Assembly: GCA_964406145.1 (NCBI GenBank)
Contig: CAYOQP010000002.1
Location: forward strand, 13,537-77,536
Length of the DNA stretch: 64,000 nucleotides
Source of the DNA: an uncultured Candidatus Saccharibacteria bacterium
Lineage (GTDB): Bacteria; Patescibacteriota; UBA1384; XYA2-FULL-43-10; 1-14-0-10-43-13
Direction of reading: 5' to 3'
Below, piece by piece: positions 9,251 to 26,111 of the stretch (position 1 is the stretch's first letter; each line of letters opens with the position of its first letter). Made by a program: the position numbers and the translations under genes. The notes under the pieces were generated by a model. It did not search any database, was not told the DNA's origin, and saw nothing but the letters and a program-made list of their open reading frames with translations.

Positions 9251-9317
9251 TGGGATTTTTTACTTTGCCATATACATATATATGTATGAAGAAATCATAT
9301 ATAAAGTCAAATTGTTA

Positions 9318-11569: not shown

Positions 11570-11584
11570 TGAGCATCGCCGCGG

Positions 11585-11648
11585 CCCCCACTCTTCCTGA
11601 AAGGGTGGGGGATTCGCATTTTATAAGGACTTTATTAGTCCTTTTTTT
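11585..11648 (+). terminator. double hairpin terminator at the right edge of the GC-rich island
   Basis: CCCCCACTCTT...AAGGGTGGGGG followed by AAGGACT-TTATT-AGTCCTT and a T7 run. Confidence 0.65.
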
Positions 11649-11667
11649 GGTGCCAATTTTGTCTTAT

Positions 11668-11696
11668 TTGCTTTCGAAAAATAATTGTTTTATGAT
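11668..11696 (+). promoter_or_regulatory. sigma70-like promoter (TTGCTT-17-TATGAT)
   Basis: Precedes the 11741 to 25206 cluster. Confidence 0.45.
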
Positions 11697-11740
11697 GTAA
11701 TAAACAATATAATATATCTAAATTATTTTCTGGAGGGATT

Positions 11741-12100
11741 ATGTCAAGTCAACAAGCACAGGACTCCATTGTTGGTGATATCATTAAAAAAGATCTCATC
11801 GATCTTTTGGGATTAAACGATCTACCTGAGGAGAAGAAAGAAGAGTACCGCAAGACGGCGGCTGAGACAGTCTACAACCGAGCCTTTATCCGTGCTACTG
11901 ATATGCTCGAAGAGATGGGACTACTAGAAGAATACCAGAAGGAAGATCGAGACGAAGAGGGGACTAAAGCCTTTTTTGCGAGTCACGGAATCGATCTGGA
12001 ACAATTGCTTAAAGATGAAGCCTTGATATATAAGACGCAGATGAAGATGTCTGCAGACCTACTGGATGCTGGGATAGACGTAAAAGCCAAAGCGGCTTAA
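11741..12100 (+). CDS. hypothetical small acidic protein
   Basis: GGAGGG RBS; 119 aa. Confidence 0.45.
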   Translation: MSSQQAQDSIVGDIIKKDLIDLLGLNDLPEEKKEEYRKTAAETVYNRAFIRATDMLEEMGLLEEYQKEDRDEEGTKAFFASHGIDLEQLLKDEALIYKTQMKMSADLLDAGIDVKAKAA

Positions 12101-12110
12101 GGGAGGGAAT

Positions 12111-15100
12111 ATGACAGTAGACGGACGAGGTCCATCACCTGAAGAAATGGGAGTAGATGTCAGCCGTGCTGGCGGTGCGGTTGTAGTTGATGCGAGCGAA
12201 GCATCTCCAGATGGTGGTGCTTTTAGTTTGGACGATCTTCCACCAGCAGATGTAGATCCTTTAGCAGGTGAAGATGCAGCTCCTGTTGTAGTTGATGAAA
12301 CACCAGAAGAAGGACTTGTTTCTGCTACTCCAGCCACCCAGGCCGAACCAGTCGCTGGAGCAACACTAGAAAGACCAAAGACTCAACAAGAGCTTGCAAA
12401 AGAAAAGAGAATGACCAAACTTGATGAATCAATCAAAGCGACGGCAAAGTTGGCCGAATCAGGCAAATTGCTGAAAATGGCCAAGTATCGCAAGAAAGAT
12501 GCCGGAGAGCATGTCGTCGATGGTCTTAAAAGCTTTGCCAAAAAAGCTGTCATTGGTGGTGCAATTGGTGGATTTTTTGCTGGTCCTCTTGGAATTCTAG
12601 CTGGTATTGGTGGTGCGGCCGGATCAGAGCTTGGAGTCAGTGTCGGCAAGATCTTTCGCGGTGCAGTCGACAAAATTGGCGAGATGAGTGGCCGCGAAAA
12701 TAAACAAGAAGATCTGAGAAGAGAACTCGAAATTCTCGAATCTGACAGACTTTGTAAATTGGCAGATTTAGCAGTCGCCACAGCAGAAGCAATAAGATTA
12801 CCAGAGGGCGAGAAAATTACTTTCGAAGGCGCTGAGTATACGGCGGATGAAATGCGTCTAAAATATTTTGAATTTGTTACTAAAATGGCTGATCCCAATT
12901 CTGCGGAAAATCAGGCCATGGCAGAGAAAGAGAAGAAATACAAAAAAGGAGAAGTCGGTTGGAAATTATTCAATGGCTTACTTGGTGTTGCTGGCGGCAT
13001 ATTAGCTGGCGGCGCGATAACCGAAGCCATCAGAGCAACACTTACACAACAAATTGCTTTGCATGGTGTTAATATGAAGACTGGCGGTATCGGCGAGCTT
13101 GCTGATACTTATGGCTCAGAGAGTCTAAAGCATATGCAAACCCTAGGCCATAATGTGCATGTGCATAATGGCGGAATAGTTTTTGATTATCAGGGTGGTG
13201 CTGGTGGAGCAGAGCTTCAGGAAATTGGTCAAGCAATGCAGAATGCTCCTGCTTGGCTACAGAATGGTCACTTTTTTAATTCAGAATTAATCCAGCAAGG
13301 CATGCACGAGGCCGAAGGTTTAAGAGCTCAGTTTACTGAGATTGTTGGTCGTGAAGTACAAACAAAAATTTATGGTATTATCGCTGGCATTGGTGCGGCT
13401 TCTGCAGTTGTTGATATGTTTAGGAATGATCGTGGCAAGAAGACTGGTAAAGTCGAGGCTATTTCTAAAGAGACATTATTATCCAGAGATCTTGCGCCGA
13501 CTCCTGCTAGTCCAGCGGCACCTGCGGGGCCAGCGGCACCAGGTGGTGAGGGCGGAGGAGAAGAGCTAGCTCCGATAGAGCTTAGGATCGGTGGTATATA
13601 CGGAGCTCGTACCGATTTGCTTGGTTCTGATGGCGCCGTCATTTTGCCTCGAGACGGCGAAGTCACTTTGGCTAGTGCTGATGCTGCTGCGCGAACAGTT
13701 GTCCTACAGCAGACTAATGCTGATGGGGAGACTGCTACATGGGAAGATTATCCTATCGATCAGTTCCAAACAAATTTTATTTATCTTAGAGGTGGCGCTG
13801 CGCCAGAAACATCAACAGAAGAAGATGAGAATGAAGAGCTTGAGCCTGGTGAAATATCAGCAGATGAGCAAGCCGAGCTTGATGATATGCCGGAGAACGA
13901 GCGGGAGTTCATGGAGGCTGCCTATGCTTTACGTGGTGCAAGGGGCCCAATCGCCAGAGCTGAGAGAGAAAATCCCGACGATGAAGTTACATATGTTGGC
14001 GAGGGCACATTCCAAACTTATCAAGATTTGATGGATGCTGGAGATACGGCTGGATTCGACATTTGGTGGAGCGGCCCAGAATATGGCCATATTCCAAATG
14101 TTGGGACAGCAGAATTTGTAGTTACGGGAGTTGTCTGTAGCCGCAATCCAGATGGCCAACTTCGTGTTGATTTCGAAATTGATATTATTGCAGAACCCGA
14201 TCCAGATATATTGGCTCGAGGCTATGAAAGAAAAGGCTTCTTTAATGAAGCTGGTAATAATGAGTTTGATGCCGAAGCTTTCAGGACCGCAGTAAATGAG
14301 GCATCCTTAACGGAGCCAGTAATAATTAGATTGTCTGATGGTCAAGTACTTCATGCCAATCCTAGTTCAGCTGGAAATGAGGGTTTTTCAATATTCAATC
14401 CAGATAATCCAGATAATCCACCTCAGCCGATAAAGTACAACGAGCTTACAGAAGAAGGTTTGAGTGGTGCTCTGGGTGTGGACTGGTACGTCAAAAAAAG
14501 TACGGAGCCGGTAGTAGAAGAAGCACCACTGGCTGATGGCGAGGACGAAGTTGTGCCTCTGCCAGGAGGCTCAGATGCAGACGCTGAAGTGCCGCTTATT
14601 ACTGAGAAAGAGGCTGGTCTTAATGAAATAAGGACACTGGTTAATCGTCTTGCGGCAGTCGGCCCAGTCAAGGCGGTTAGACACGAAGGCGCAAACGATG
14701 ATATTATTGATCCTGACCCAGGAAAAGTTGATAAATGGTTTCAATTTCATGATGAGATCATTGCGAAGAAGAGCGACTCTGTCTCTATCAGTTTTGTCAC
14801 GGAGGGTATAGAGACTTTTACTGATGGTTCTGAGTATATGCTAACTATAGATGGGACTCCAGAAATTTCAGAAGATGCAGATGGCAAAGTTAAGATTATC
14901 ATCAAGGGTCGTGCTGAAGCTGTCTCTGGTCCTGCGGAAGAGTCTGAATTGCCGGCGCCCGAGGGCGATCCGGCCGCGGCGGAGAAAGAAAGAATCCGTC
15001 AAGAGATCAATGATCTAGCAGTAGAATTGGTGGCTTTTGGGTCGGTAAAGATGAGAAGAACGGACACTGGTGCCGAGTCGCTTGACCCTGGATTTTTCCC

Positions 15101-16814
15101 TGCTTATTTAAAACTCAAAAATACCGCTGAAAGTAACGGCTATGAATTCCGACATACAATTGTTGGAATGAACGCTCTCGCTTCTGGGACAGAATTTTCA
15201 GCTATCTACGATTCTCAAGAGATAATTCAAGATCCAGACGGTAAAATGATTATTAAGGTGGTTGCTCATGTTGAGACGGCTCCAGCGCCAGCAAATCCTG
15301 AAGCTGATTTAGAGTCAGATATTTCTGGTAGTGAAGTTTTGGTTAATGCGGCTACTGGGGAAATCAATCCACCTTCAGCTGTTTCGGCCAAATATCCAGA
15401 TAAACGTTTTTCAATCAAGCCAGACCTGTCCTTCAATAAACCAGCCGTTGATTTTTATGCAAAGATTGATTTAGCGGCTGATTCATTTGGCATTACCCCT
15501 GATCCAGAATATCCTGATCATTTATTTGTTCCAATTACGCTAAAGCCGGCTGATGGTTTCACTGAAGCTGAGCGTGGAGGTTTTTTCCTTGAAGTTGATA
15601 TTTTCGGAAGAAATTGGGATAAATTCAACACTCGTTTCGCTAATCGCGAGACTAGCGGCGAAGTCTTCACTTTGCGTGACAGGAATTTAATTGAGTATAC
15701 GATTACCGGTCAGGATGGCGATGATTATATTATGACTTCAGCTGCAGGTGAGACGAGAATGACAGCCGACAAAATTAAGGCAAACATTGTTGACTGGTAT
15801 GCAAAGGCAGGTGAGGTGTCGACTGGAGCCCCAGAGACTGAGAATACTACGGATGCCCCACCTTCCCCAGAAGCCGGCACGGAGACGACAATTGATGCTG
15901 ATGTTGAAGCTTTAAGCGCACAATTCGTCGGAAAAGAATTTGAGTTTACGAGTCCGACTGATTTTCACAACGTTGAGGCTGATGGTTTTACGCTTGATGA
16001 TCAGATGAAGAAACTTGTAGAGAAATATCCAGATTTTTCAGCCAAGCCGATGTGGTTTTTGCCTGAGTCTGCTTCTGGCAAAGCCAGGATTTCCTCTATA
16101 AAAAAATACGAAAAAGAAGGTTATAAGTATTTTATGGTCAAGTTTGATATTGAAGAACTTAACCCCGATGCAATTTTATCTGCCGCTGGTTATGAACAAA
16201 GAGGAACATTACAAAGTGGGATAAAAGGAAATAATTTAGAGAAATATAAAAAGGCAATAGATTCGGGCGAACAGGTAGTTGTAAGAGATTATAAAGGTGG
16301 TATTTATCTAATGACAGGAAAAAATGCGACCACAGGTGATAGATACTGGGAGGGCAGACCATTCGATCCTATTACTGGTACAATTGGAGAGCCAGTTCCT
16401 AGTTTCGCTATGCCAGTTGACTGGTATGTAAAAAAGGCTGATGGCGGTGCTCCAGTCGGAGAGCCTGCGACTGATACTGGCACAACAGAATCTCCTGTCG
16501 ACGAACCACCAGCTGAAAGATTGCCCTTTGAGCGACTAGAGAATGGCCGTATTCGACTAAATTATCCAGATGGCAAGACCATAGAGCTCGGCGGACCGGA
16601 ATCAGTCACATTGCCGATAACTGAAAAGGGTGAGAAAAAAGATGCTACTGGAGTAATAATGAGTGTCAAGTTTTCGCCGCCAGTGACTGAAGAAACCGAC
16701 CTAGATATCAAGCTTCTAAAGGAAGGATCTACTAGGCTTTCAAAAGTTACTTATAAAGTTAGCGAATTAAAACAATATTTATTAGAGAAGAATCCTGGGC
16801 TACTTAGAGGATAA
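12111..16814 (+). CDS. giant acidic protein (1567 aa) with a Gly-zipper segment and internal DWYVKK repeats
   Basis: GGGAGGG RBS; uninterrupted 4.7 kb ORF; GGAIGGFFAGPLGILAGIGGAAG segment; repeated (V)DWY(V/A)K(K/A) motif three times. Confidence 0.6.
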   Translation: MTVDGRGPSPEEMGVDVSRAGGAVVVDASEASPDGGAFSLDDLPPADVDPLAGEDAAPVVVDETPEEGLVSATPATQAEPVAGATLERPKTQQELAKEKRMTKLDESIKATAKLAESGKLLKMAKYRKKDAGEHVVDGLKSFAKKAVIGGAIGGFFAGPLGILAGIGGAAGSELGVSVGKIFRGAVDKIGEMSGRENKQEDLRRELEILESDRLCKLADLAVATAEAIRLPEGEKITFEGAEYTADEMRLKYFEFVTKMADPNSAENQAMAEKEKKYKKGEVGWKLFNGLLGVAGGILAGGAITEAIRATLTQQIALHGVNMKTGGIGELADTYGSESLKHMQTLGHNVHVHNGGIVFDYQGGAGGAELQEIGQAMQNAPAWLQNGHFFNSELIQQGMHEAEGLRAQFTEIVGREVQTKIYGIIAGIGAASAVVDMFRNDRGKKTGKVEAISKETLLSRDLAPTPASPAAPAGPAAPGGEGGGEELAPIELRIGGIYGARTDLLGSDGAVILPRDGEVTLASADAAARTVVLQQTNADGETATWEDYPIDQFQTNFIYLRGGAAPETSTEEDENEELEPGEISADEQAELDDMPENEREFMEAAYALRGARGPIARAERENPDDEVTYVGEGTFQTYQDLMDAGDTAGFDIWWSGPEYGHIPNVGTAEFVVTGVVCSRNPDGQLRVDFEIDIIAEPDPDILARGYERKGFFNEAGNNEFDAEAFRTAVNEASLTEPVIIRLSDGQVLHANPSSAGNEGFSIFNPDNPDNPPQPIKYNELTEEGLSGALGVDWYVKKSTEPVVEEAPLADGEDEVVPLPGGSDADAEVPLITEKEAGLNEIRTLVNRLAAVGPVKAVRHEGANDDIIDPDPGKVDKWFQFHDEIIAKKSDSVSISFVTEGIETFTDGSEYMLTIDGTPEISEDADGKVKIIIKGRAEAVSGPAEESELPAPEGDPAAAEKERIRQEINDLAVELVAFGSVKMRRTDTGAESLDPGFFPAYLKLKNTAESNGYEFRHTIVGMNALASGTEFSAIYDSQEIIQDPDGKMIIKVVAHVETAPAPANPEADLESDISGSEVLVNAATGEINPPSAVSAKYPDKRFSIKPDLSFNKPAVDFYAKIDLAADSFGITPDPEYPDHLFVPITLKPADGFTEAERGGFFLEVDIFGRNWDKFNTRFANRETSGEVFTLRDRNLIEYTITGQDGDDYIMTSAAGETRMTADKIKANIVDWYAKAGEVSTGAPETENTTDAPPSPEAGTETTIDADVEALSAQFVGKEFEFTSPTDFHNVEADGFTLDDQMKKLVEKYPDFSAKPMWFLPESASGKARISSIKKYEKEGYKYFMVKFDIEELNPDAILSAAGYEQRGTLQSGIKGNNLEKYKKAIDSGEQVVVRDYKGGIYLMTGKNATTGDRYWEGRPFDPITGTIGEPVPSFAMPVDWYVKKADGGAPVGEPATDTGTTESPVDEPPAERLPFERLENGRIRLNYPDGKTIELGGPESVTLPITEKGEKKDATGVIMSVKFSPPVTEETDLDIKLLKEGSTRLSKVTYKVSELKQYLLEKNPGLLRG

Positions 16815-16821
16815 AAGAATT

Positions 16822-17778
16822 ATGGACACATCTACATCTGCAAAAAATGAAGAATTAGGTTCGGCCGGATCAGTGGACATCTATAGTCAGGAAGAGGAGC
16901 TGGATCCATCTTCACTTGATGATGAAACCAGAGTTGAAGTGCTGGATGATTTTTGTAATATTCTTTTGCCTTTAATAGAAAATCACAATTCACTAACTGA
17001 GGCAAAGAAAGATGATGAGGCTGAGCCAATCAGCACGAGAATCACAAAGTTTTTTGTCGACATGGTTCCTTATGGACCAGAATCAGAGCAAGTCTTGAGA
17101 ATGGAAAAAAGCGTCAAAGATGCAACATTGAGAGGCGATCTGCAATCCATCAGAGAGCAGGCTATTGCCGACAGGGAAGATTTGGCTAGGCACGCTGAAT
17201 ATATGGATAAGGTAAGAGGCATGGAGTTTATGACGAAGAAGAAGCTCGATGCGATTCCGGAGCCAGAGCCAATGAAGCCAGTGCCTTCTCTTCAAGAAGT
17301 CATCGATGCCAAGAAAGCCGCTGGTTTATCAACATTTACTTCGCCAAATGACGAGCTAATAATTGATGCAGTTGATCCCGAGACAGTGCCAACGGGCACA
17401 GCAGAAACGGTCGCGGCGACAAGAGACAATGATAATGCCGTGGAAACAGAGCATGCTGCGCCAGTAGAAACGACCAATGTGGTAACTCCAACGGAAGATG
17501 AAGCGCTTAAGACGGCAGAAGCTGTTAAGGTCGCCCCAGAAGAAGCAGAAGTCGAGACTCCAGTCCAGGCGGCTGTTGTCGAAAAGCCAGCAGGAGATAA
17601 TACTATTGATAAAGTCGAGACGCCGGTAGAGGTGACTACTGCCCCAGTTGCTGAGACGACTGATCCCGATAAATTGCCGTGGTGGAAGAGAGTCTTAGGT
17701 CTTGGGTCTAATCCCGACACTTCTCAGGTTGCTGGTGTTGGCCCCAACGGTCCGCTAGTTGAAGAAGAGAAAAAATAG
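16822..17778 (+). CDS. hypothetical acidic protein
   Basis: 318-aa ORF tightly linked to the giant gene. Confidence 0.5.
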   Translation: MDTSTSAKNEELGSAGSVDIYSQEEELDPSSLDDETRVEVLDDFCNILLPLIENHNSLTEAKKDDEAEPISTRITKFFVDMVPYGPESEQVLRMEKSVKDATLRGDLQSIREQAIADREDLARHAEYMDKVRGMEFMTKKKLDAIPEPEPMKPVPSLQEVIDAKKAAGLSTFTSPNDELIIDAVDPETVPTGTAETVAATRDNDNAVETEHAAPVETTNVVTPTEDEALKTAEAVKVAPEEAEVETPVQAAVVEKPAGDNTIDKVETPVEVTTAPVAETTDPDKLPWWKRVLGLGSNPDTSQVAGVGPNGPLVEEEKK

Positions 17779-17780
17779 AT

Positions 17781-20333
17781 ATGTACAGTGGAGGGAATTA
17801 TTATAATAGCGATCCAGGATTATTCGCGGATGGAATTCCGTGGTATTTTTGGTTGATCGGCGTAATTGTTATTATTGTTTTGGTTGCGATTTTCTATCAA
17901 TGGATCAGGCTCTGGATTCTAGCTCGTTTTCAAATGAGGCTTTCTAAGGACTGGGTCATGTACAAGATTTTGGTGCCGAAAGAACGACATGCCGAGGAAG
18001 ATGATCAGCGCAAGAATTTCCAGGAAATGCTAGCAGTTATTGAGCCATTCTATGCTAATCTAAATGCACTCTTTGATAATTCGATGATCAAGAAAATGAC
18101 TGGTCAGGTCAATGTCTCACTCGAAATTATCGCCAAAGACAATGTCATTTCTTTTTATGTTGGTTGTCCGAGAAAAATATCAGAGATTGTTTTGAAAAAT
18201 CTTCATTCTCAGTACGCTCATGCCGAGATTACTGAGGATAATAATTTTTCAATTTTTCCCAAGAAACCTCTTCAGATTGATATTCTGAATCTAAAGCTAA
18301 TCAAGAGATATTTGTTCCCGATTAAGACATACAAGAATCTCGAGGAAGATCCTCTCAATGCTTTGTCAAATTCGCTTTCTAAGCTTACACTTGATCAGCT
18401 GGCTGGAGTACAGATAATGCTGAGACCGACCTCTGGAATGTGGAGATTGCCGATCGAGCGCGCAGCCTTCAATATTCAGCATGGAAAATCGAGAATTTCT
18501 TATTCCTCATCGGCTACAGTCCGAGCCTCTGAAGCCTTTTTCAATTTCATTGGGCAAGCAGCTAATAATGCGACAGGCAAGGGCGAGGAACAACACACCG
18601 AATTTTATGATCCAAAAAATCCCATGAAAGTAACACCGATGCAAGAAGCACAGGTCAAGATGCTTGGCGAGAAGGCGGCTAAACTTGGATTTGAATGTCA
18701 AATTAGAGTTGTGGCGGTTGCTGAGACAAAGGATCAGGCCAAGCAATTGTCTCGACATGTTGCTGGCGCCTTCAATCAGTTCAATTCTCCTGATGCCAAT
18801 GGTTTTGTGACTAAGGAAGTTAAAAAAATGTCAGAGGAATTAGCCAACTATATCTTTAGGGTTTTCGGTCGGGGGCCGAGACTAATTCTTAATACTGAAG
18901 AGCTGGCTTCACTGTTTCATTTCCCAAATCGTTTTGTTGACACACCTAACATTGTTTGGCTGCTTGCCAAGAAGGAGGCGCCGCCAGCAAACTTGCCAAC
19001 CGAAGGCACGATTCTTGGCAAAGCCCTTTACCGTGGTCAGGAGCAGATGATCAAGATCAAACAGGGCGACAGACTTAGACACTTATACCAGATCGGTAAG
19101 ACCGGCGTGGGTAAGACTGTCCTTTTCCAGAACATGATTCTGCAGGATATTCTTGAGGGTAATGGCGTCTGTTATCTGGACCCGAATGGTGACGCGGCCG
19201 AGTGGATATTGAATCATATACCCAAGGAGCGTGCTGACGATGTCATCTACTTCAACCCAGCTGATCGAGAAAGGCCGATGGGTCTCAATATGTTGGAGTG
19301 GAAGACGTCTGATCAGAGAGACTTTTTGGTCCAGGAAGCTATTCAAATTTTTTACAAGCTTTTCGATCCCAATCAGACCGGTATTGTTGGTCCACAGTTT
19401 GAGCACTGGATGCGCAATGCCTCACTGACTTTAATGTCTCACCCTGATGGTGGCACCATCATCGATATCCCGAGACTCTTTACTGATCCAGATTTCGAAA
19501 AGAGTCGAGTCAAATATGTCAAAGATCCAGTTGTCAAATCATTCTGGGAGAAGCAGATGGCCAAGACGGCGGATTTCCATAAATCTGAAATGTTAAACTA
19601 CTTTACCTCAAAGTTTGGTCGTTTCATGACCAACGATATGATGCGCAATATTATTGGTCAGACCAAGTCATCTTTTGATTTCCGAGACATTATGGATAAT
19701 AAGAAGATTTTGATCTGTAATCTCTCGAAAGGTTTGATAGGGGAGATCAACGCATTTCTGCTGGGTATGATAATAGTTTCCAAGATCGCGATGGGAGCCT
19801 TCTCTCGCCAAGATATTCCAGAGAGTGAGCGTATCCCATTCTTTCTCTATGTTGATGAGTTTCAGAACTTTGTGACTGAGGTTTTTGCCACCATCTTGTC
19901 TGAGTCAAGGAAATACAAGCTGTCTCTAAATATTACTAATCAGTATATCGAACAGCTTGATGAGAAGATTAGAGCGGCTGTAATAGGTAATGCCGGCACA
20001 TTGGTGGCCTTTCGAATGGGTGCGGCTGACGCAGAATTTTTCGTCAAGGAATTTGAGCCGCTAAAGCCGGAGGACTTAACGACAATTGATAAGTATAATT
20101 TCTATATCAAAATGCTGATTGATGGGGCACCAACCAAGCCGTTTAACGGTCAAAGTATCTGGCCTGATGATCCAGAAGGAAATCCGAAGCTTGGAGCGGC
20201 GATTAAGGAGCTTTCCAGGATGAAATATGGCAAACCCAAAGAGATGATTGAGACGGAAATCCTAGAACGATCCAAAGTTGCTTCTATTGATTTACCAGGC
20301 CTACAGCCAACTTCAAACCAGCCCACTCTTTAA
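17781..20333 (+). CDS. membrane-anchored FtsK/HerA-superfamily P-loop ATPase (VirD4/TraG/VirB4-like)
   Basis: N-terminal TM; Walker A GKTGVGKT followed by DPNGD; Walker B FFLYVDEFQNF. Confidence 0.7.
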   Translation: MYSGGNYYNSDPGLFADGIPWYFWLIGVIVIIVLVAIFYQWIRLWILARFQMRLSKDWVMYKILVPKERHAEEDDQRKNFQEMLAVIEPFYANLNALFDNSMIKKMTGQVNVSLEIIAKDNVISFYVGCPRKISEIVLKNLHSQYAHAEITEDNNFSIFPKKPLQIDILNLKLIKRYLFPIKTYKNLEEDPLNALSNSLSKLTLDQLAGVQIMLRPTSGMWRLPIERAAFNIQHGKSRISYSSSATVRASEAFFNFIGQAANNATGKGEEQHTEFYDPKNPMKVTPMQEAQVKMLGEKAAKLGFECQIRVVAVAETKDQAKQLSRHVAGAFNQFNSPDANGFVTKEVKKMSEELANYIFRVFGRGPRLILNTEELASLFHFPNRFVDTPNIVWLLAKKEAPPANLPTEGTILGKALYRGQEQMIKIKQGDRLRHLYQIGKTGVGKTVLFQNMILQDILEGNGVCYLDPNGDAAEWILNHIPKERADDVIYFNPADRERPMGLNMLEWKTSDQRDFLVQEAIQIFYKLFDPNQTGIVGPQFEHWMRNASLTLMSHPDGGTIIDIPRLFTDPDFEKSRVKYVKDPVVKSFWEKQMAKTADFHKSEMLNYFTSKFGRFMTNDMMRNIIGQTKSSFDFRDIMDNKKILICNLSKGLIGEINAFLLGMIIVSKIAMGAFSRQDIPESERIPFFLYVDEFQNFVTEVFATILSESRKYKLSLNITNQYIEQLDEKIRAAVIGNAGTLVAFRMGAADAEFFVKEFEPLKPEDLTTIDKYNFYIKMLIDGAPTKPFNGQSIWPDDPEGNPKLGAAIKELSRMKYGKPKEMIETEILERSKVASIDLPGLQPTSNQPTL

Positions 20334-20372
20334 TTAATAAGTCCTAGATTAATATTATTGCGCGACAAAATG

Positions 20373-20401
20373 TTGACGTATTGCTATTTATGTGGTAAGA
20401 T
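20373..20401 (+). promoter_or_regulatory. sigma70-like promoter (TTGACG-17-TAAGAT)
   Basis: Seen directly; internal promoter within the cluster. Confidence 0.4.
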
Positions 20402-20437
20402 AATGGCGTTGTTTAAGAATTATTAAACAAAAATAAA

Positions 20438-20944
20438 ATGCCAACTGAAAAAGAGCTCGAAAGAGTCAAACAATTGCTTGATGCGGCGGAAGCCAGCATC
20501 AGACAGGCGAAGAACGTTTTGTTCACAGCTGAGCTGTCTGAGATGACCAAGGAGTTGTCCAACGGTGATAGCAAGGTGATCGAAGGCGTTTTCAATGGCG
20601 AGAGCATGGTCGGCCCCGATAAAAAGATTTATCCGGTGCCCGCAAACTATGCTTCTAAGTCAAAATTAGTAAGCGGGGATGTCTTAAAGCTTACAATTCT
20701 TGATGATGGCACTTTTCTTTATAAGCAGATCGGGCCGGTCAAACGTAAAAAGGTTATCGGCGAACTTATCGAGGTTGGCGATGGAAAATATATCGTCGAC
20801 ACCAAGAGCGCCGAATATCAAGTTTTGCCTGCGTCAGTAACTTATTTTAAAGCCAAATCAGGTGACAAATTAACAATTCTTTTGCCAGAAGCCGGAGTCT
20901 CCGAGTGGGCGGCAGTAGAAAATTTATTAGAATCAACAATTTAA
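20438..20944 (+). CDS. hypothetical protein
   Basis: 168-aa ORF. Confidence 0.45.
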   Translation: MPTEKELERVKQLLDAAEASIRQAKNVLFTAELSEMTKELSNGDSKVIEGVFNGESMVGPDKKIYPVPANYASKSKLVSGDVLKLTILDDGTFLYKQIGPVKRKKVIGELIEVGDGKYIVDTKSAEYQVLPASVTYFKAKSGDKLTILLPEAGVSEWAAVENLLESTI

Positions 20945-20952
20945 GAGGTAAA

Positions 20953-21987
20953 ATGGTAGTCAAAAACTTTAGCCCCTACAAATTAGTTAGTGAAGCAATT
21001 CATGAATTGAAACCAAATGAGGTTACCGTCATTTCTGGTCGTTTTGGCATTGGTTCTGATCATCTTACTCTTTCTGCTATTGGCAAAAAGCTTAAACTCT
21101 CTAGAGAGCGAATACGTCAAATTGAACGCGAAGCCCTAAAAAAGGTTGCACGTCTGATTGTGAATGAGAAAAATTCTTCTATCAATGAGATTGTTCGTTC
21201 TTTCGAAAAAAATGGTGGCATCACTAGCCATGAAAAAATTGCCGAAAAGTTTCTCGAAGAGAATTATTGGAATGACAAAAACGAGTTCAATTCACTTCAT
21301 CTTATTTTTGTTATTATGCCATCAATTTTGAAAATTGAAAAAACCCAAGAGCTTGAGTCTGGCTGGATGCTAACGTCCTTGTCGAAAGATGACGCAATTA
21401 AAATTATTAACGATTGGGTTGGCCATCTTAAGAAAAATAATAAACCAGAAACTCTTGATGTTTTGATTGATGCTCATCCAGAACACAAGAAATACAAAGT
21501 TACTTTCCTGTCAGAGCTTCCAGAAATTAGTAAGAAACTAGTCAAAACTGATACCGGCCACATTGGTCTATCTTCTTGGCCAGAGGTCAATCCTAAAAAC
21601 GTTCGTGACAAAATATTCTACATCCTAAATCATCATGGTAAGCCAATGCACTTTGAAGACATCGCCAAGGCGATCGTCGACCATAAGTTTGATGGCAAAA
21701 AAATTGTCAAAGCCACAGTTCATAACGAATTGATTGCTGATTCTCGTTTCGTTTTGATTGGCCGTGGAATTTATGCTCTCAAAGAGTGGGGTTATCAACA
21801 GGGTACAGTCTCGGACATCATCAAAGAGATTCTCTCAAAGCATGCCGCTGGTCTTACAGTTGACGAAATCACCAAGAAAGTTTTAGAACAGAGAATGGTT
21901 AAGAAAAATACCATCCTTATCAATCTCCAGACAAAGCCATATTTTAAGAAAATTTCTAAAGAGAAATACGTCCTAAGTAGCTTCTAA
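20953..21987 (+). CDS. sigma-70 region-4-like HTH protein (putative regulator)
   Basis: LTLSAIGKKLKLSRERIRQIEREALKKVAR resembles RpoD region 4.2; AAGAGG RBS before ATG 20953. Confidence 0.55.
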   Translation: MVVKNFSPYKLVSEAIHELKPNEVTVISGRFGIGSDHLTLSAIGKKLKLSRERIRQIEREALKKVARLIVNEKNSSINEIVRSFEKNGGITSHEKIAEKFLEENYWNDKNEFNSLHLIFVIMPSILKIEKTQELESGWMLTSLSKDDAIKIINDWVGHLKKNNKPETLDVLIDAHPEHKKYKVTFLSELPEISKKLVKTDTGHIGLSSWPEVNPKNVRDKIFYILNHHGKPMHFEDIAKAIVDHKFDGKKIVKATVHNELIADSRFVLIGRGIYALKEWGYQQGTVSDIIKEILSKHAAGLTVDEITKKVLEQRMVKKNTILINLQTKPYFKKISKEKYVLSSF

Positions 21988-22059
21988 GGCCCTAGTAAAT
22001 CTTACTCCATAGCAGTATAATGATCTTAGTCGTATTACGACTTAGTTTGCAGTAGGAGT

Positions 22060-25000
22060 ATGAATTACATTTTATACATTATCTATGCTATCCTAATCAT
22101 TGGTCCGATTTACCTTATTTGGGCGATTATGAATATTAATAGAAAAATGAAAAAAGTTGACTGGCTCAATGCACAAGAATACACCATTCTTCGCATTGAT
22201 GTCCCGAAAAATAATGACAAGTCTCCGCTTGCCGCTGAGCAAATGTTTGCCGCTATTCATGGAATTTACTCGGAGAGTGCTAGTTATCAAAATCATCTCT
22301 CTTTCGAAATAGTTTCCAAAGACAAGTTTATCCAATTCTATATCTATCTTCCGGTCCATTTGAAAGATTTTGTCGAAGGGCAAATTTATGCTCAATATCC
22401 GACAGTTGAGATTCAGGAAGTAGGGGATTACACTCAAGAAATCGACCCTAAGTCACAGAACTATGCTACCTGCGAGCTCGGTCTTAATAAGCCTGATGTT
22501 TATCCGATAAAGCAGTTTACTGATTTTGAAGTTGACCCGATTTCCGGCATCACTTCTGTTATGACGAAGCTCAATGCTGGCGAGGAAATTTGGTTTCAGG
22601 TCATGATCAGGCCGATAGGCGATGAGTGGCAGGAAAAGGGTCATGAAATGGTTTCGCACATACGTAACGGCACGTCTCTCAGGGGTAAGGGGCTAGCCGG
22701 TCAGTTCAACAAGACATTAAAACTTTGGTTTAAAGCTTTCTTTATTCAGCTCGTTAAACCAGGAGAGGCTTTTGAAACTAAGCCATCTGAAGTTAAACTT
22801 CATGCTTCCGTTGAGGATGCTCTCAAAAACATTGAACAAAAAATCACCAAGCTGGGTTTTGAGACCAAGATGCGAATCTTGGCTTTGGGCGGAGATAGTG
22901 TTTCGGCCAGAATGAAATGCCAGAATGTTGCTGCTGCCTTCAAGCAATACAACACTACCCACCTAAACGGTTTCAAGGTTGGCGAAATTTTGGTTAACGA
23001 TCATTCGGCTTGGAAGGATTTTGCAGAGCGTTCTTTTGAAGATGATGGTAAGATTTTTAATATTTCCGAACTTGCCTCAATTTATCACTTGCCTCATAGC
23101 TCGGTTTCGACGCCAAATATTGTTTGGTCTGGATCCAAGAAAGGCGAGCCACCTGCTAATTTGCCTCTTCGTGAAAATACTCCAGAGGACGAACTAACTG
23201 TAATCGGTGAGACAAATTTCAGAAACAACTTCAAGGTTTTCGGCATCAAGAAAGATGACAGGCGCCGACATATCTACATTGTTGGTAAGTCTGGTGTAGG
23301 TAAATCAGTTTTGATTGAAAATATGGCTGTCAATGATGTTTGTGCGGGTAGGGGAGTGATTGTGGTCGATCCACATGGCGAACTAGCCGATAAGGTTCTT
23401 TCCTGTATTCCAGAAAACAGAATTAAAGATGTAGTGGTTTTCGATCCATCTGATCGTGAATTTCCGGTTGCCTTTAACCTTCTAGAGCATGTTGATGATG
23501 ACTTTAAGAGTATTGTCGCTTCAGGTTTCGTCGGTATTTTCAAAAAGATTTTTGGCGATTCTTGGGGCCCTCGTCTCGAGCATATTCTTCGAAACACGGT
23601 TTTGGCGCTTCTTGATTTTCCTGATTCGACCATGTTGGACATTCCGAGAATGTTAACTAATAATCGTTTTCGCGAAAAAGTTATCGAAAGAGTAAAGGAC
23701 CCAATCATTAAAGAATTCTGGCTCAATGAATTTGCTTCATTCGATAGCAAGTTCAGAACTGAAGCCGTTTCGCCAATTTTGAACAAGGTTGGACAATTTT
23801 TGTCTTCGGCCACAATCAGACATATTGTTGGTCAGCCAAAATCAACGATTAATATTCGTGAAATTATGGATCAAAAGAAGATAATGATTGTCAATCTTTC
23901 TCGCGGTAAGATCGGTGAGGATAATTCGGCCCTCTTGGGTGCAATGATGATCACCAAAGTTCAGCTTGCGGCTATGAGCCGTGCTGATGTTACTGTCGAT
24001 AATCGACCGGATAGTTATCTTTACGTCGATGAGTTTCAGAACTTTGCCACAGAATCATTCGCTGTTATTCTGGCAGAAGCCAGAAAATATAACTTGAATC
24101 TCACAATGGCTCATCAGTATATTGCTCAGCTTAAGGAGGAAGTGAGAGAGGCTGTCTTTGGTAATGCCGGCACAATTATTTCCTTTAGAGTTGGTGGAGC
24201 CGATGCTGATACTTTGGTCAAAGAGTTTGAACCAGTCTTTGAAACTAATGATATGGTCAATCTTGATAAATATCATATTTACATCAAGCTTCTTGTTGAC
24301 GGTGTTTCCTCCCCGGCATTTTCTGCTCGTACATTGCCTCCAGTCCAAAAACTAACAGGTAATCTTGAAGCTGTGATCAATAATTCGCGTAGCACTTATT
24401 CTCGAACACGTGCTGAAGTTGAGAATATGATCATGCACAGAAGCCAAGAGGAGGAAGAAGAGCTTAAGGCGGAAGCAGAGGCTTTCAAGCAAGGTGGCCT
24501 TGAAGCCCTTTTGTCCAAAAAACCAGTTTCTGTAACCTCTTCCCCAAGTTCTGAAGAGAAAAAGGGCGATCTTGATGTTGAGATTATCCAAGAGCCAGTT
24601 CCGATTAAATGGATCAATCCAGAGAAACCAGAAGTTAAGGATGTGCCAGCCGAGACCAAGACAATCGCTGAGCCATCAGAACCAAGGAACGAAAATGTTG
24701 AGACTAAAAAAGCAGAAGGTCCAAGAGTTGTGAAATATGATAGCATTCTGGACGGTAAAATTTATAAGGAAAGAACGGCTAGGGGAGGGGTGAAATGGTA
24801 TCTCGGGGAAGAGATTGACGAGGAAAAATTAGCCAAGAATAAGGTCTTATTAGATGACGGAGCTCGTAAAATTATTGAATTGTCAAAAGAAGTCGCGCCC
24901 AAAGGGGGAAAGAAAAATAACCAAAACAAGGGTGATGGTCATAAAAAAAATGATCATGAGGCAGGGGAGTCTCATTCTGGAAAAAGTGATAAGGTTGCAG

Positions 25001-25206
25001 AGAAGACTGAAGATAAAGACCCAGAGATAACTAAATTCCCAGAAAATCAAACTGAAAACGACAAGGCTAAAGAAGACAAAGAAGGGGCTGAAATCAAGAC
25101 TGAGCCAGAGGCAAAAATAGTCGCCGATAAAAATAACGATGAGCAGCCTATTAAATCCGATCCTCAGCATCTGGAAGAGGGCCAGTCGGTCAAAATTGGT
25201 GACTAA
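22060..25206 (+). CDS. membrane-anchored FtsK/HerA-superfamily P-loop ATPase paralog with Lys/Glu-rich C-terminal tail
   Basis: N-terminal TM; GKSGVGKS followed by DPHGE; SYLYVDEFQNF; alignable with the 17781 to 20333 protein across the whole ATPase region. Confidence 0.7.
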   Translation: MNYILYIIYAILIIGPIYLIWAIMNINRKMKKVDWLNAQEYTILRIDVPKNNDKSPLAAEQMFAAIHGIYSESASYQNHLSFEIVSKDKFIQFYIYLPVHLKDFVEGQIYAQYPTVEIQEVGDYTQEIDPKSQNYATCELGLNKPDVYPIKQFTDFEVDPISGITSVMTKLNAGEEIWFQVMIRPIGDEWQEKGHEMVSHIRNGTSLRGKGLAGQFNKTLKLWFKAFFIQLVKPGEAFETKPSEVKLHASVEDALKNIEQKITKLGFETKMRILALGGDSVSARMKCQNVAAAFKQYNTTHLNGFKVGEILVNDHSAWKDFAERSFEDDGKIFNISELASIYHLPHSSVSTPNIVWSGSKKGEPPANLPLRENTPEDELTVIGETNFRNNFKVFGIKKDDRRRHIYIVGKSGVGKSVLIENMAVNDVCAGRGVIVVDPHGELADKVLSCIPENRIKDVVVFDPSDREFPVAFNLLEHVDDDFKSIVASGFVGIFKKIFGDSWGPRLEHILRNTVLALLDFPDSTMLDIPRMLTNNRFREKVIERVKDPIIKEFWLNEFASFDSKFRTEAVSPILNKVGQFLSSATIRHIVGQPKSTINIREIMDQKKIMIVNLSRGKIGEDNSALLGAMMITKVQLAAMSRADVTVDNRPDSYLYVDEFQNFATESFAVILAEARKYNLNLTMAHQYIAQLKEEVREAVFGNAGTIISFRVGGADADTLVKEFEPVFETNDMVNLDKYHIYIKLLVDGVSSPAFSARTLPPVQKLTGNLEAVINNSRSTYSRTRAEVENMIMHRSQEEEEELKAEAEAFKQGGLEALLSKKPVSVTSSPSSEEKKGDLDVEIIQEPVPIKWINPEKPEVKDVPAETKTIAEPSEPRNENVETKKAEGPRVVKYDSILDGKIYKERTARGGVKWYLGEEIDEEKLAKNKVLLDDGARKIIELSKEVAPKGGKKNNQNKGDGHKKNDHEAGESHSGKSDKVAEKTEDKDPEITKFPENQTENDKAKEDKEGAEIKTEPEAKIVADKNNDEQPIKSDPQHLEEGQSVKIGD

Positions 25207-25271: not shown

Positions 25272-25301
25272 GGGTGATGCTTGGTTCACCCTTTTTATTT
25301 T
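25272..25301 (+). terminator. intrinsic terminator
   Basis: GGGTGA-TGCTTGGT-TCACCC followed by TTTTTATTTT. Confidence 0.65.
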
Positions 25302-25754: not shown

Positions 25755-26111
25755 TTAGGACTTGTCTGTGACCTTTTTTTGTAATTTATTGAGAGTTGCG
25801 GTTTTGAGTTGTCCGATGTTGGCAAAGATTCTTATTATAAAGGCAACAAGTATTGCTAGATACAAATCAAGATTTAATTTATCACCGAAGAAGGTAATTA
25901 GTATCGCAACAGCCATATTGAAAGCTAGACCAGTTAAGAAGACCATGGTGTCGTACTTGTTTTCAGCTGAAGCACGAATAGCCCCAAACAAAGAATCCAT
26001 CACGCCGACTATAGCTACAGCGGTGTATCTAGCGTATTCTGGTGGAATATTAAATTGGAGAAATCCGCCAATAGCGAGACCAAAGGCAAGAGAAATAATT
26101 AATAAATACAT
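25755..26111 (-). CDS. small integral membrane protein
   Basis: 118 aa with three or four hydrophobic helices. Confidence 0.45.
   Translation of the reverse strand: MYLLIISLAFGLAIGGFLQFNIPPEYARYTAVAIVGVMDSLFGAIRASAENKYDTMVFLTGLAFNMAVAILITFFGDKLNLDLYLAILVAFIIRIFANIGQLKTATLNKLQKKVTDKS

What the first reader, a model, noticed from the sequence alone, without database searches (positions are those of the whole stretch)
17781..25206. Two divergent paralogs of the same large ATPase flank the regulator gene
The two proteins (850 and 1048 aa) align from their N-terminal TM through the roughly 400-aa pre-ATPase domain (…QYAHAEI / …QYPTVEI) to the Walker A/B region, but are well diverged. A duplicated motor is unusual for coupling proteins and hints at a heteromeric motor or two substrates.
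Basis: seen in the sequence. Interest (0 to 1): 0.6.

Follow-up and report, generated by a model that had tools for sequence, protein, structure and literature searches.

The report
Ancient paired Patescibacteria translocase-like ATPases
Two old copies of a membrane-anchored, DNA-pump-like ATPase typical of ultra-small Patescibacteria sit side by side here, both with intact catalytic motifs and each with its own small partner gene; the pair is real and conserved, but carrying several such ATPases is already known to be normal in this phylum.

Summary
ORFs 17781-20333 (A, 850 aa) and 22060-25206 (B, 1048 aa) are collinear paralogs: 35% identity over 816 aa, E 9e-157. Both keep intact Walker A and B motifs.

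Both belong to the Patescibacteria family Pfam calls DUF8128. The architecture is one N-terminal TM helix, a ~345-aa N-domain, then a coupling-protein-like (TrwB/VirD4/TraD) ATPase. The N-domain's predicted fold matches only the N-terminal domain of VirB4.

The window is a Berkelbacteria-like chromosome with housekeeping flanks and no VirB4, relaxase or other T4SS gene.

The duplication is ancient. With Bacillus-phage homologs as outgroup, A-type and B-type form two clades (bootstrap 83 and 89). Each type also occurs alone in other lineages.

Each type has its own partner. The 168-aa gene follows A-type genes. The "regulator" (sigma-70 region 4 + HARE-HTH) directly precedes B-type genes in about 25 loci that lack A.

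This favours two separate motor modules joined into one cluster in this lineage over an obligate hetero-hexamer. The substrate is unknown.

A 2025 survey already counted about two T4CP homologs per Patescibacteria genome, mostly far from virB4. Duplication is therefore not unusual. The A/B split, the partner genes and the VirB4-like N-domain appear undescribed.

The parts
11741..12100 (+). Small acidic protein (119 aa), first gene of the plus-strand run that ends with B. Belongs to the lineage-specific upstream part of the cluster.
   Evidence: ORF. Homologs sit at the same relative position in L001 (1434-1865) and L092 (599-1075). No Pfam or NCBIfam hit. A terminator-like hairpin lies just upstream at 11625-11643.
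12111..16814 (+). Giant acidic protein (1567 aa) with one glycine-rich hydrophobic stretch. Its position is conserved but its sequence is hypervariable. Role unknown; a possible cargo or partner.
   Evidence: ORF and translation. No family hit in Pfam, NCBIfam, PADLOC or PHROGs. No BLAST hit in any fetched locus. Large acidic ORFs of 2031, 1279, 725 and 692 aa occupy the same slot in L001, L002, L092 and L003.
16822..17778 (+). Acidic 318-aa protein that ends 3 nt before A. Position conserved, sequence variable.
   Evidence: ORFs of 277-282 aa occupy the same slot in L001, L002 and L092. No family hits.
17781..20333 (+). Paralog A (850 aa), an A-type DUF8128 ATPase. TM helix at about residues 19-48 (nt 17835-17924). 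VirB4-NTD-like N-domain at residues 57-400 (nt 17949-18980). T4CP-like ATPase with Walker A at nt 19095-19118 and Walker B at nt 19839-19865.
   Evidence: PF26449 precomputed; AF2 pLDDT 82.
20373..20401 (+). Promoter-like site (TTGACG, 17 nt spacer, TAAGAT, with TG) in the 105-nt gap between A and the 168-aa gene. A consensus match only.
20438..20944 (+). 168-aa protein (p168), a conserved companion of A-type genes. Fold and function unknown.
   Evidence: Translation. Homologs lie downstream of the A-type gene in 16 loci, with or without B: L001-3, L008-11, L015, L090, L092, L093, L095, L148, L153, L164, and L087 after B. No Pfam, NCBIfam or PDB sequence match.
20953..21987 (+). The 'regulator': sigma-70 region 4 (residues ~15-65) plus an RNAP-delta-like HARE-HTH (residues ~220-280). 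It lacks sigma region 2. It is a conserved upstream partner of B-type genes.
   Evidence: Pfam Sigma70_r4 1.6e-13 and HARE-HTH 7.5e-15. PDB hits to sigma region 4 and RNAP delta. 6,858 homologs, almost all 342 aa. It directly precedes the B-type gene, whole or split, in about 29 loci.
22060..25206 (+). Paralog B (1048 aa), a B-type DUF8128 ATPase. TM helix at residues ~1-26. N-domain to about residue 365. Walker A at nt 23284-23307 and Walker B at nt 24016-24039. Has a ~250-aa charged tail with a conserved motif at about residues 893-925 (nt 24736-24834) and a conserved C-terminal LEEG.
25272..25291 (+). Terminator-like hairpin followed by TTTTTATTTT, 66 nt after the stop of B. Probable end of the transcription unit.
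   Evidence: a consensus scan only.

Best explanation
A and B are the two ancient orthogroups, A-type and B-type, of a Patescibacteria-wide family of membrane-anchored P-loop translocase-like ATPases (Pfam DUF8128).

**Architecture.** Each protein has one N-terminal TM helix. A cytoplasmic N-domain follows, whose predicted fold resembles the N-terminal domain of VirB4. The C-terminal motor is closest in sequence to type IV coupling proteins (TrwB/VirD4/TraD), including the inserted all-alpha domain.

**Inferred working model.** By analogy with TrwB, VirB4, HerA and FtsK, each protein forms its own ATP-driven ring at the membrane. Each works with its own small partner: A with the 168-aa protein, and B with the sigma-region-4/HARE-HTH DNA-binding protein, probably through B's conserved C-terminal tail motif. 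In this Berkelbacteria-like lineage the two modules have been joined into one plus-strand cluster, A - p168 - HTH - B. This makes two motors with two partners or substrates, not one obligate mixed ring.

**Substrate (least certain step).** The substrate is most likely DNA or a nucleoprotein. The motor is T4CP-like, B's partner is a DNA/RNAP-binding HTH protein, and a phage homolog is coupled to a Replic_Relax protein.

**Shown:** paralogy, intact motifs, ancient split, separate occurrence, partner-gene linkage, absence of T4SS genes nearby.

**Inferred:** ring formation, partner binding, DNA substrate.
For: **Paralogy and motifs**
- 35% identity over 816 aa, E 9e-157.
- Walker A Lys and Walker B Asp-Glu are invariant in 117 A-type and 42 B-type proteins.

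**Family**
- PF26449 is precomputed on both proteins.
- 7,087 clusters at 50% identity score E<=1e-30.

**Motor identity**
- hhalign of the C-domain: T4CP 98.6-99.6% (E 1e-22 and 7e-16), VirB4 94-97.6%, FtsK-like 69-91%.
- BLASTP to TrwB: 22% over 300-358 aa, E 7e-7 and 4e-8.
- Foldseek to TrwB: TM 0.63-0.65 normalised to TrwB.
- TraG-D_C matches 14 of 14 members and TrwB_AAD_bind 13 of 14.

**N-domain**
- The full model's best PDB hits are VirB4/TrwK over ~930 columns, E 2e-16.
- The N-domain-only model (pLDDT 84.6, pTM 0.82) significantly matches only TrwK chains: E 1.4e-7 to 4.5e-5, TM 0.43-0.47. The next hit has E 8e-3.

**Ancient split**
- In an NJ tree rooted with phage G gp156 and CP-51 gp91, A and B are reciprocally monophyletic. 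Bootstrap is 83 for A, 89 for B and 73 for both.
- The branching order within the B clade mirrors that within the A clade.

**Separability**
- 74 of 80 genome loci carry A alone (one search counts 75, because the contig-truncated B in L004 scores below its cut-off); 39 of them have at least 5 kb on both sides.
- 43 of 80 metagenome loci carry B alone.
- Tandem pairs occur only in L001-L006 and 8 metagenome loci.

**Partners**
- The HTH gene abuts or overlaps the start of B-type genes in about 29 loci, including 12 where B is split in two. It is never adjacent to a lone A.
- p168 lies downstream of A in 16 loci.

**DNA link**
- CP-51 gp91 overlaps a Replic_Relax gene.
- Phage G gp156 follows a VirB4-type P-loop_TraG ATPase.

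**No T4SS nearby**
- Flanks are RF, Pth, L1/L10/L12, TGT, SecDF, RluD, RmuC, AddA-like, FtsZ/FtsA and similar.
Against: - No direct evidence on oligomeric state. No multimer modelling was available.
- In the lineages that carry the pair, A and B are tightly packed, with overlapping ORFs in L004-L006, L144 and L163. Their trees are congruent. Both features also fit a physical complex.
- I could not show that lineages with a lone A-type or lone B-type locus carry the other type elsewhere in the genome, or lack it. The single genome scan kept only the 80 best loci.
- The N-domain/VirB4 link rests on predicted structure only. TM is below 0.5, and there is no profile-profile or Pfam signal.
- The HTH protein may simply be a transcription factor for the operon.
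- The DNA substrate is pure inference. The only functional statement found is that a Ca. Southlakia T4CP homolog is non-essential (PMC12102498), and that protein was not shown to be of this family.
Confidence: 0.5

Rival explanations
1. Obligate heteromeric motor. A and B co-assemble into one mixed ring, for example A3B3, at the membrane. The two intervening small proteins are accessory subunits.
For: - A and B are tandem and on the same strand. They lie directly adjacent or overlapping in L004-L006, L089, L144 and L163.
- Most long contigs appear in both ortholog lists, for example 222484, 867751, 971566 and 395669.
- The branching order within the A and B clades is congruent.
Against: - A-type genes stand alone in most lineages and B-type genes stand alone, with the HTH gene, in many others.
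- Neither paralog shows the motif decay typical of a regulatory subunit in mixed rings.
- Each has a different conserved neighbour.
- Supplementary Table S3 of the published survey lists a single T4CP hit for the Woesebacteria genomes in the part read. Whether that hit is the A-type protein was not verified.
Confidence: 0.2
2. Coupling proteins of the patescibacterial T4SS encoded elsewhere in the genome. A and B are two substrate receptors that feed different cargo into one VirB4/VirB6 channel. Candidate cargo is effector proteins such as the giant acidic proteins encoded just upstream, or DNA.
For: - The motor is T4CP-like and has TraG-D_C and TrwB_AAD_bind signatures.
- Most Patescibacteria have a chromosomal VirB4 cluster, and T4CP genes are usually distant from it (PMC12102498).
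- B has a long charged C-terminal tail with a conserved motif. By general knowledge, the adaptor-binding tails of TraD and DotL are comparable.
- Hypervariable giant acidic proteins sit directly upstream in this clade.
Against: - No T4SS gene lies within 64 kb.
- The T4CP homolog of Ca. Southlakia is not essential for epibiotic growth, whereas the T4SS genes are (PMC12102498).
- There is a VirB4-like N-domain and a single TM helix instead of the usual two-helix T4CP anchor.
- Scores fall far below every NCBIfam T4CP cut-off.
- Homologs occur in Bacillus phages, where no complete T4SS was seen around the gene in the two regions inspected.
Confidence: 0.2
3. Housekeeping chromosome-handling motors. 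They would act as FtsK-like DNA pumps at the division septum or in DNA uptake, which would explain their near-universal, single-locus, housekeeping context.
For: - The context is chromosomal and housekeeping in every lineage.
- A XerC/D-like recombinase and an FtsB-like gene lie next to the lone A-type gene in 16-18 Microgenomates loci.
- The motor belongs to the FtsK/HerA/T4CP superfamily.
Against: - Similarity to FtsK/TcpA is the weakest of the three reference sets.
- No FtsK gamma domain was found. Only 2 of 14 members give a weak FtsK_SpoIIIE hit.
- The Xer linkage is confined to one group of related loci.
- Whether these genomes also have a canonical FtsK was not tested.
Confidence: 0.1

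Closest known systems
Type IV coupling proteins (TrwB of R388, VirD4, TraD of F, PcfC of pCF10, DotL)
   Same: - Membrane-anchored P-loop ATPases with an all-alpha insertion between Walker A and Walker B.
- Best sequence and profile match for the C-domain.
- Fold match to TrwB, TM 0.63-0.65 normalised to TrwB.
- B has a long C-terminal tail, as TraD and DotL do.
   Different: - One TM helix instead of two.
- An extra ~345-aa N-domain that T4CPs lack.
- No relaxase or T4SS genes nearby.
- NCBIfam scores of 25-54 bits against cut-offs of 250-800.
- Chromosomal and housekeeping context, near-universal in one phylum.
VirB4 (TrwK of R388; PrgJ, TcpF, TraC)
   Same: - Size about 800 aa and a two-domain N-domain + RecA-like C-domain layout.
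- Best full-length structural hits (E 2e-16).
- The only significant hits for the N-domain alone (E 1.4e-7).
- A split N-domain gene + ATPase gene variant exists. It recalls TrsD + TrsE of pSK41: the 2025 survey states that TrsD is remotely homologous to the VirB4 N-terminal part, and the two genes are adjacent in pSK41.
   Different: - No sequence-level similarity in the N-domain (hhalign probability <1; no CagE/TraC Pfam hits).
- The C-domain is closer to T4CP than to VirB4.
- Not linked to VirB3, VirB6 or VirB8.
- Patescibacteria have a separate bona fide VirB4 (PMC12102498).
T4CP homologs of Patescibacteria counted by Quinonero-Coronel et al. 2025 (PMC12102498)
   Same: - Same phylum, and the same observation of about two T4CP-like genes per genome located away from virB4.
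- The authors suggest exaptation for another function.
- Their Table S3 lists closely spaced T4CP pairs at gene indices 83/85, 604/605, 273/276 and 324/330.
   Different: - The paper does not separate orthogroups, does not describe the N-domain, partner genes or phage homologs, and does not mention DUF8128.
- I could not map its t4cp1 and t4cp2 hits onto A-type and B-type.
TcpA/TcpB of Clostridium perfringens plasmid pCW3
   Same: Two adjacent paralogous coupling-type ATPase genes in one transfer locus. This is a precedent for duplicated coupling motors.
   Different: - They are FtsK/SpoIIIE-type, plasmid-borne and next to a relaxase and a full conjugation locus.
- TcpB is much shorter (327 aa).
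Bacillus phage proteins: phage G gp156, CP-51 gp91, PHROG phrog_5156
   Same: - Full-length homologs including the N-domain. Phage G gp156 is 25% identical over 88% of B, E 7e-63.
- phrog_5156 matches A and B almost end to end, E 1.8e-86 and 4.6e-99.
   Different: - Single copy per phage and unknown function.
- Neighbours are a VirB4-type ATPase in phage G and a Replic_Relax protein in CP-51, not the HTH protein or p168.

Membership tests
Pfam DUF8128 (PF26449) proteins | Match to the PF26449 model in the N-terminal part | tested here: met
   Precomputed PF26449 hits appear on the exact A and B sequences and on all listed orthologs. The local Pfam copy gave no hit to this model, so this rests on the precomputed annotation.
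Type IV coupling protein (VirD4/TrwB/TraD) | RecA-like nucleotide-binding domain with Walker A/B, homologous to TrwB | tested here: met
   hhalign probability 98.6-99.6; BLASTP E 4e-8 and 7e-7; Foldseek TM 0.63-0.65 normalised to TrwB; motifs intact.
Type IV coupling protein (VirD4/TrwB/TraD) | All-alpha domain inserted in the nucleotide-binding domain | tested here: met
   TrwB_AAD_bind matches 13 of 14 members, best E 2e-8. The AF2 model has a helical block at residues ~510-625 between Walker A and Walker B.
Type IV coupling protein (VirD4/TrwB/TraD) | N-terminal anchor of two TM helices directly followed by the ATPase | tested here: not met
   There is one hydrophobic segment (A residues ~13-50, B residues ~1-27) and one long helix in the model. 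About 345 residues of extra domain lie between it and the ATPase.
Type IV coupling protein (VirD4/TrwB/TraD) | Encoded with a relaxase and/or mating-pair-formation (T4SS) genes | tested here: not met
   No relaxase, VirB4, VirB6 or other T4SS family appears among the ORFs of the 64-kb window that were scanned. No conserved T4SS neighbour appears in 160 related loci.
Type IV coupling protein (VirD4/TrwB/TraD) | Score above curated family cut-offs (NCBIfam TraD, TraG, VirD4-like) | tested here: not met
   Best hits are SXT_TraD 48.3 bits (cut-off 366) and conju_CD1115 53.8 bits (cut-off 250). For B, Pfam T4SS-DNA_transf (35.6 vs 20.1) and TrwB_AAD_bind (25.0 vs 20.5) pass. For A, only TraG-D_C matches, at 21.6 against a cut-off of 22.
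VirB4 | Two-domain layout: VirB4-type N-terminal domain followed by the ATPase | tested here: inconclusive
VirB4 | Sequence membership (CagE_TrbE_VirB or P-loop_TraG models) and linkage to VirB3/VirB6/VirB8 | tested here: not met
   No such Pfam hit above threshold. P-loop_TraG matches 2 of 14 members at E 0.04. The C-domain is closer to T4CP than to VirB4. No VirB3, VirB6 or VirB8 genes lie nearby.
FtsK/SpoIIIE | FtsK_SpoIIIE motor signature and a C-terminal gamma (winged-helix) domain | tested here: not met
   FtsK_SpoIIIE matches 2 of 14 members, best E 0.0014. hhalign probability is 69-91, the weakest of the three reference sets. No gamma-like domain was detected in the tails.
HerA | HAS-barrel N-domain, DUF87 core, and a nurA partner gene | tested here: not met
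   B hits DUF87 at 27.3 bits against a cut-off of 23.2, and HerA 4d2i is a fold match for the ATPase. The N-domain did not match HerA, and no NurA-like gene is in the cluster.
Known anti-phage defence systems (PADLOC) | Match of the component proteins to a defined system | tested here: not met
   Only ATPase-domain similarity to mad8 (E 9e-13 and 2e-15) and HerA, plus a region-4-only match of the HTH protein to MzaA. The other cluster genes have no hits.

The most novel reading that the evidence does not exclude
DUF8128 ATPases would be a third, so far unnamed branch of the VirB4/VirD4 superfamily. This branch keeps a VirB4-type N-domain on a coupling-protein-type motor, a possible surviving intermediate of the VirB4-to-T4CP transition.

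It would work independently of any T4SS as a phylum-wide system in two versions: A-type + p168, and B-type + an RNA-polymerase-like sigma-region-4/HARE-HTH adaptor. The system would move DNA or nucleoprotein at the membrane of Patescibacteria, and relatives have been borrowed by large Bacillus phages.
Probability: 0.2. Interest if true: 0.75.

Novelty: new variant of a known kind. Interest (0 to 1): 0.5.

Why it matters
Patescibacteria are obligate epibionts with tiny genomes, so genes kept in nearly every genome are likely central to their lifestyle. The 2025 T4SS survey left the roughly two T4CP homologs per genome unexplained.

This analysis adds four things:
- The homologs examined here resolve into two ancient orthogroups.
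- Each orthogroup has its own conserved partner. One partner is built from two modules best known from RNA polymerase subunits: sigma region 4 and the delta-subunit HARE-HTH.
- The proteins carry a VirB4-like N-domain.
- Full-length relatives exist in Bacillus phages.

These points give concrete, testable hypotheses for a large block of dark-matter genes. They may also bear on how coupling proteins evolved from VirB4-like ancestors. If instead the proteins turn out to be ordinary accessory T4CPs, the result is a modest annotation refinement.

Tried and rejected
**Libraries not available**

**Searches that gave nothing**
- hhalign of the N-domain against small VirB4, T4CP, FtsK and TrsD profiles gave no signal, probability <1.
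- A Pfam scan of 14 members at E<=10 gave no N-domain family.
- HMMER profile search of the PDB found only DotL and TrwB, weakly, and no VirB4, FtsK or HerA.
- Rfam and tRNA scans of the window found nothing.
- No paper mentions DUF8128. A HARE-HTH/sigma/FtsK literature search gave nothing relevant.
- PDB sequence search for p168 gave nothing significant.

**Rejected ideas**
- Defence system: rejected. PADLOC shows only ATPase-level and region-4-level similarity.
- Mobile element or conjugative island: rejected. The flanks are housekeeping, with no integrase, relaxase or T4SS gene.
- A universally conserved operon partner: rejected. All-vs-all clustering of neighbours in 80 loci found only clade-level synteny.

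**Attempts that failed**
- Mapping the closely spaced 't4cp2' pairs in Table S3 of PMC12102498 onto A-type and B-type. Accessions cannot be fetched, so this stays unresolved.
- BLAST of the 1567-aa and 318-aa upstream proteins against all loci gave no hits. Only positional conservation was found.

Full report
**1. The observation**

The ORF list contains exactly the two ORFs named: 17781-20333 (850 aa, "A") and 22060-25206 (1048 aa, "B"), both on the plus strand. The quoted motifs QYAHAEI and QYPTVEI are present. BLASTP of A against B gives 35% identity over 816 aligned residues, E 9e-157, in one collinear alignment that starts just after the N-terminal hydrophobic helix.

Identity is uneven:
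- TM and linker: 13%
- N-domain (A residues 57-400): 27%
- ATPase region (A residues 401-800): 44%

Walker A is GKTGVGKT in A and GKSGVGKS in B. Walker B is LYVDEF in both, and both motifs are intact. In 117 A-type and 42 B-type full-length relatives, the Walker A lysine and the Walker B Asp-Glu are invariant.

One detail differs from the title. Two genes lie between the paralogs: a 168-aa ORF (20438-20944) and the Sigma70_r4 + HARE-HTH ORF. The latter probably starts at ATG 20953.

**2. Where this is**

The window is a chromosome segment of a Berkelbacteria-like member of the Patescibacteria (CPR). Orthologs of A and B at 56-84% identity come almost only from Berkelbacteria or "Patescibacteria group" metagenome-assembled genomes.

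The flanks are housekeeping genes:
- Upstream: release factor, Pth, L1/L10/L12, TGT.
- Downstream: SecDF, RluD-like, RmuC, AddA-like helicase-nuclease, PhoU/PiT, FtsZ/FtsA, enolase, LexA, HisRS, RelA/SpoT, ClpB-like, NusA.

Among the ORFs scanned in the 64 kb I found no VirB4, VirB6, relaxase, integrase or other T4SS or mobile-element gene. There is no Rfam match or tRNA.

**3. What the proteins are**

Both carry the precomputed Pfam family PF26449 (DUF8128) in the N-terminal half. No paper in the library mentions that name.

*C-terminal half.* It is a coupling-protein-like ATPase.
- Pfam TraG-D_C matches 14 of 14 sampled members, TrwB_AAD_bind 13 of 14, and T4SS-DNA_transf 9 of 14.
- NCBIfam gives only sub-threshold TraD and VirD4-like hits.
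- The only PDB sequence matches are DotL and TrwB.
- I built small reference profiles from R388, pCF10, pCW3, pSK41, F and E. coli FtsK. hhalign ranks the C-domain as T4CP (probability 98.6-99.6, E 1e-22 and 7e-16), then VirB4 (94-97.6), then FtsK/TcpA (69-91).
- BLASTP to TrwB gives 22% identity over 300-358 residues.

*Predicted structure.* An AlphaFold2 model of A (pLDDT 82) shows three parts:
- a long N-terminal helix (residues 21-56, the single TM segment);
- an alpha/beta N-domain;
- a RecA-like domain with a helical insertion between Walker A and Walker B.

Foldseek against the PDB puts VirB4/TrwK of R388 first, over ~930 columns (E 2e-16). HerA, Cag-beta and TrwB follow, and these cover the ATPase only; TrwB gives TM 0.63-0.65 normalised to TrwB.

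*N-domain alone.* Modelled separately (pLDDT 84.6, pTM 0.82), the N-domain has significant matches only to TrwK chains: E 1.4e-7 to 4.5e-5, probability 1.0, TM 0.43-0.47. The next hit has E 8e-3. TrwB, HerA and other RecA-like ATPases are not hit, so the match is to the VirB4 N-terminal domain and not to its ATPase.

The family therefore combines a VirB4-like layout with a T4CP-like motor and a single TM anchor. It is neither a canonical T4CP nor a canonical VirB4 (see the membership table).

**4. How old and how widespread the pair is**

They spread across Microgenomates, Parcubacteria, Doudnabacteria, Saccharibacteria-labelled and Gracili/Peribacteria assemblies. A full HMMER pass over 1.84 billion cluster representatives found 7,087 clusters at E<=1e-30.

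*Genome loci (best 80).* Only the six closest, L001-L006, carry A and B together. The other 74 carry a single A-like gene, 38-47% identical to A and 33-38% to B, with no second copy within the fetched flanks. One search counts 75, because the contig-truncated B in L004 scores below its cut-off. Of these, 39 have at least 5 kb on both sides.

*B-type breadth.* Most of the top representatives for B are clearly B-type, scoring 100-450 bits higher to B than to A, down to 36% identity. B-type is therefore itself a broad, old group.

*Metagenome loci (80).* A scan seeded with distant B-type proteins returned the following:
- 43 loci with B-type alone;
- 30 loci with A-type alone;
- 8 tandem loci, with layouts A-B, A-p168-B or A-p168-HTH-B.

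*Rooting.* An NJ tree rooted with two Bacillus-phage homologs makes A-type and B-type reciprocally monophyletic. Bootstrap is 83 for A, 89 for B and 73 for both, out of 100. Within the tandem lineages the A and B subtrees have the same branching order.

The duplication therefore predates the divergence of the sampled classes. The side-by-side arrangement is a feature of Berkelbacteria and their relatives.

**5. Each paralog has its own partner**

The Sigma70_r4 + HARE-HTH gene is not a gene that merely happens to be flanked. A homolog, 36-66% identical, sits immediately upstream of the B-type gene in about 29 loci, often abutting or overlapping it. This includes 25 of the 43 B-only loci and all loci where B is split in two. 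It is never adjacent to a lone A-type gene.

That protein family is large, with 6,858 hits, and has a fixed length of about 342 aa. It has sigma region 4 and an RNAP-delta-like HARE-HTH but no sigma region 2. It cannot be a complete sigma factor.

The 168-aa protein is found downstream of A-type genes in 16 loci, with or without B.

B-type proteins also carry a charged C-terminal tail. It has a strongly conserved motif, Y.E.T.RGG.KWY.GE at about residues 893-925, and a conserved C-terminal LEEG. A lacks both.

The cluster thus reads as two modules, [A + p168] and [HTH + B], placed in series.

**6. Mechanism**

*Shown:*
- two intact, anciently separated ATPases;
- separate occurrence of each type;
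- distinct conserved neighbours;
- no T4SS context.

*Inferred from the family:* TrwB, VirB4, HerA and FtsK all act as rings, by established knowledge. Each protein here probably forms an ATP-driven ring held at the membrane by its N-terminal helix. The VirB4-like N-domain would serve as a membrane-proximal platform.

*Inferred from context:*
- B probably recruits its substrate through the HTH protein, perhaps via the conserved tail motif. TraD recruits TraM, and DotL its adaptors, through C-terminal tails (general knowledge).
- DNA or nucleoprotein is the most likely substrate. The motor is T4CP-like, and the partner is built from DNA/RNAP-binding modules.
- In phage CP-51, the homolog gp91 overlaps a Replic_Relax gene. 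In phage G, gp156 follows a VirB4-type P-loop_TraG ATPase.

I put about 0.5 on "two separate motor modules". My confidence in the DNA substrate specifically is clearly lower.

*Rivals:*
- An obligate A/B hetero-ring (0.2). Tight packing and congruent trees favour it. Separate occurrence and fully intact motifs in both types count against it.
- Two receptors for the distant patescibacterial T4SS, possibly handling the hypervariable giant acidic proteins encoded upstream (0.2).
- An FtsK-like housekeeping role (0.1).

**7. Comparison with what is known**

Quinonero-Coronel et al. 2025 (PMC12102498) found 5,713 T4CP homologs in 2,918 Patescibacteria genomes. Only 148 were near virB4. They noted that the Ca. 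Southlakia homolog is non-essential and that exaptation cannot be excluded. Their Table S3 shows closely spaced T4CP pairs in Paceibacteria.

Duplicated coupling-type ATPases are therefore the rule in this phylum, not an oddity. Plasmid pCW3 offers another precedent with TcpA and TcpB.

The following appear not to be described, as far as the searchable library shows:
- the A/B orthogroup structure;
- the dedicated partner genes;
- the VirB4-like N-domain;
- the split-gene variants, which recall TrsD + TrsE of pSK41;
- the Bacillus-phage relatives (phrog_5156).

**8. Verdict**

The paralogs are real, intact and coupling-protein-like. The duplication is not unusual, and the evidence leans to two modules over one mixed motor.
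- Novelty: a new variant of a known kind.
- Interest: moderate, 0.5. It would be higher if the VirB4/T4CP intermediate reading and the HTH-adaptor idea hold.

Noticed in passing
window 7200-9300 and 9900-11700: A block of GC 0.54-0.72 sits in a genome of about 0.40 GC. Its ORFs are 7242-7871 (lipoprotein-like, weak vWA hit), 7805-9190, 9976-10899 (Pro/Ala-rich, with a 12-nt tandem unit at 10747-10866) and 10862-11569. None has a homolog in any fetched locus. Relatives such as L163 have TGT directly next to the A-type gene, so this is a foreign insert or an assembly chimera.
   Followed up: partly
window 11741-17778; L001 1434-9523; L002 4845-9919; L092 599-4562: Upstream of A, close relatives keep the same gene order: a small acidic protein, a giant acidic protein (725-2031 aa) and a ~280-aa acidic protein. 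Only the small one is recognisably homologous. The others are hypervariable.
   Followed up: partly
L105, L108, L109, L117, L118, L120, L125, L130, L131, L142, L152; proteins P0284, P0296, P0299, P0302: In one B-type sublineage the gene is split at the domain border. An N-domain ORF (403-488 aa) is followed by an abutting ATPase ORF (490-621 aa) that starts with its own Met. The HTH gene is still upstream. This recalls the TrsD + TrsE arrangement of pSK41.
   Followed up: partly
L168 (Bacillus phage G, 2327-6469); L167 (phage CP-51, 3918-9403): Full-length homologs of A and B exist in large Bacillus phages. Phage G gp156 lies next to gp155, a P-loop_TraG/VirB4-type ATPase. CP-51 gp91 is overlapped by gp90, a Replic_Relax protein, and lies near gp96, an actin-like ALP. 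PHROG phrog_5156 covers A and B almost end to end.
   Followed up: partly
window 24736-24834 and 25180-25203 (B residues ~893-925 and the C-terminus): Inside the otherwise low-complexity Lys/Glu-rich tail of B, a short motif (Y.E.T.RGG.KWY.GE) and a terminal LEEG are conserved across 118 B orthologs. This may be a partner-binding element.
   Followed up: partly
L016, L017, L023, L024, L031, L036, L037, L043 and about 10 more Microgenomates loci: The lone A-type gene is followed by a XerC/D-like tyrosine recombinase on the opposite strand and an FtsB-like small membrane protein. This linkage is confined to one clade.
   Followed up: no
window 25755-26111 (-): A DUF1290 gene lies between B and secF. 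It is also conserved at this position in L001.
   Followed up: no
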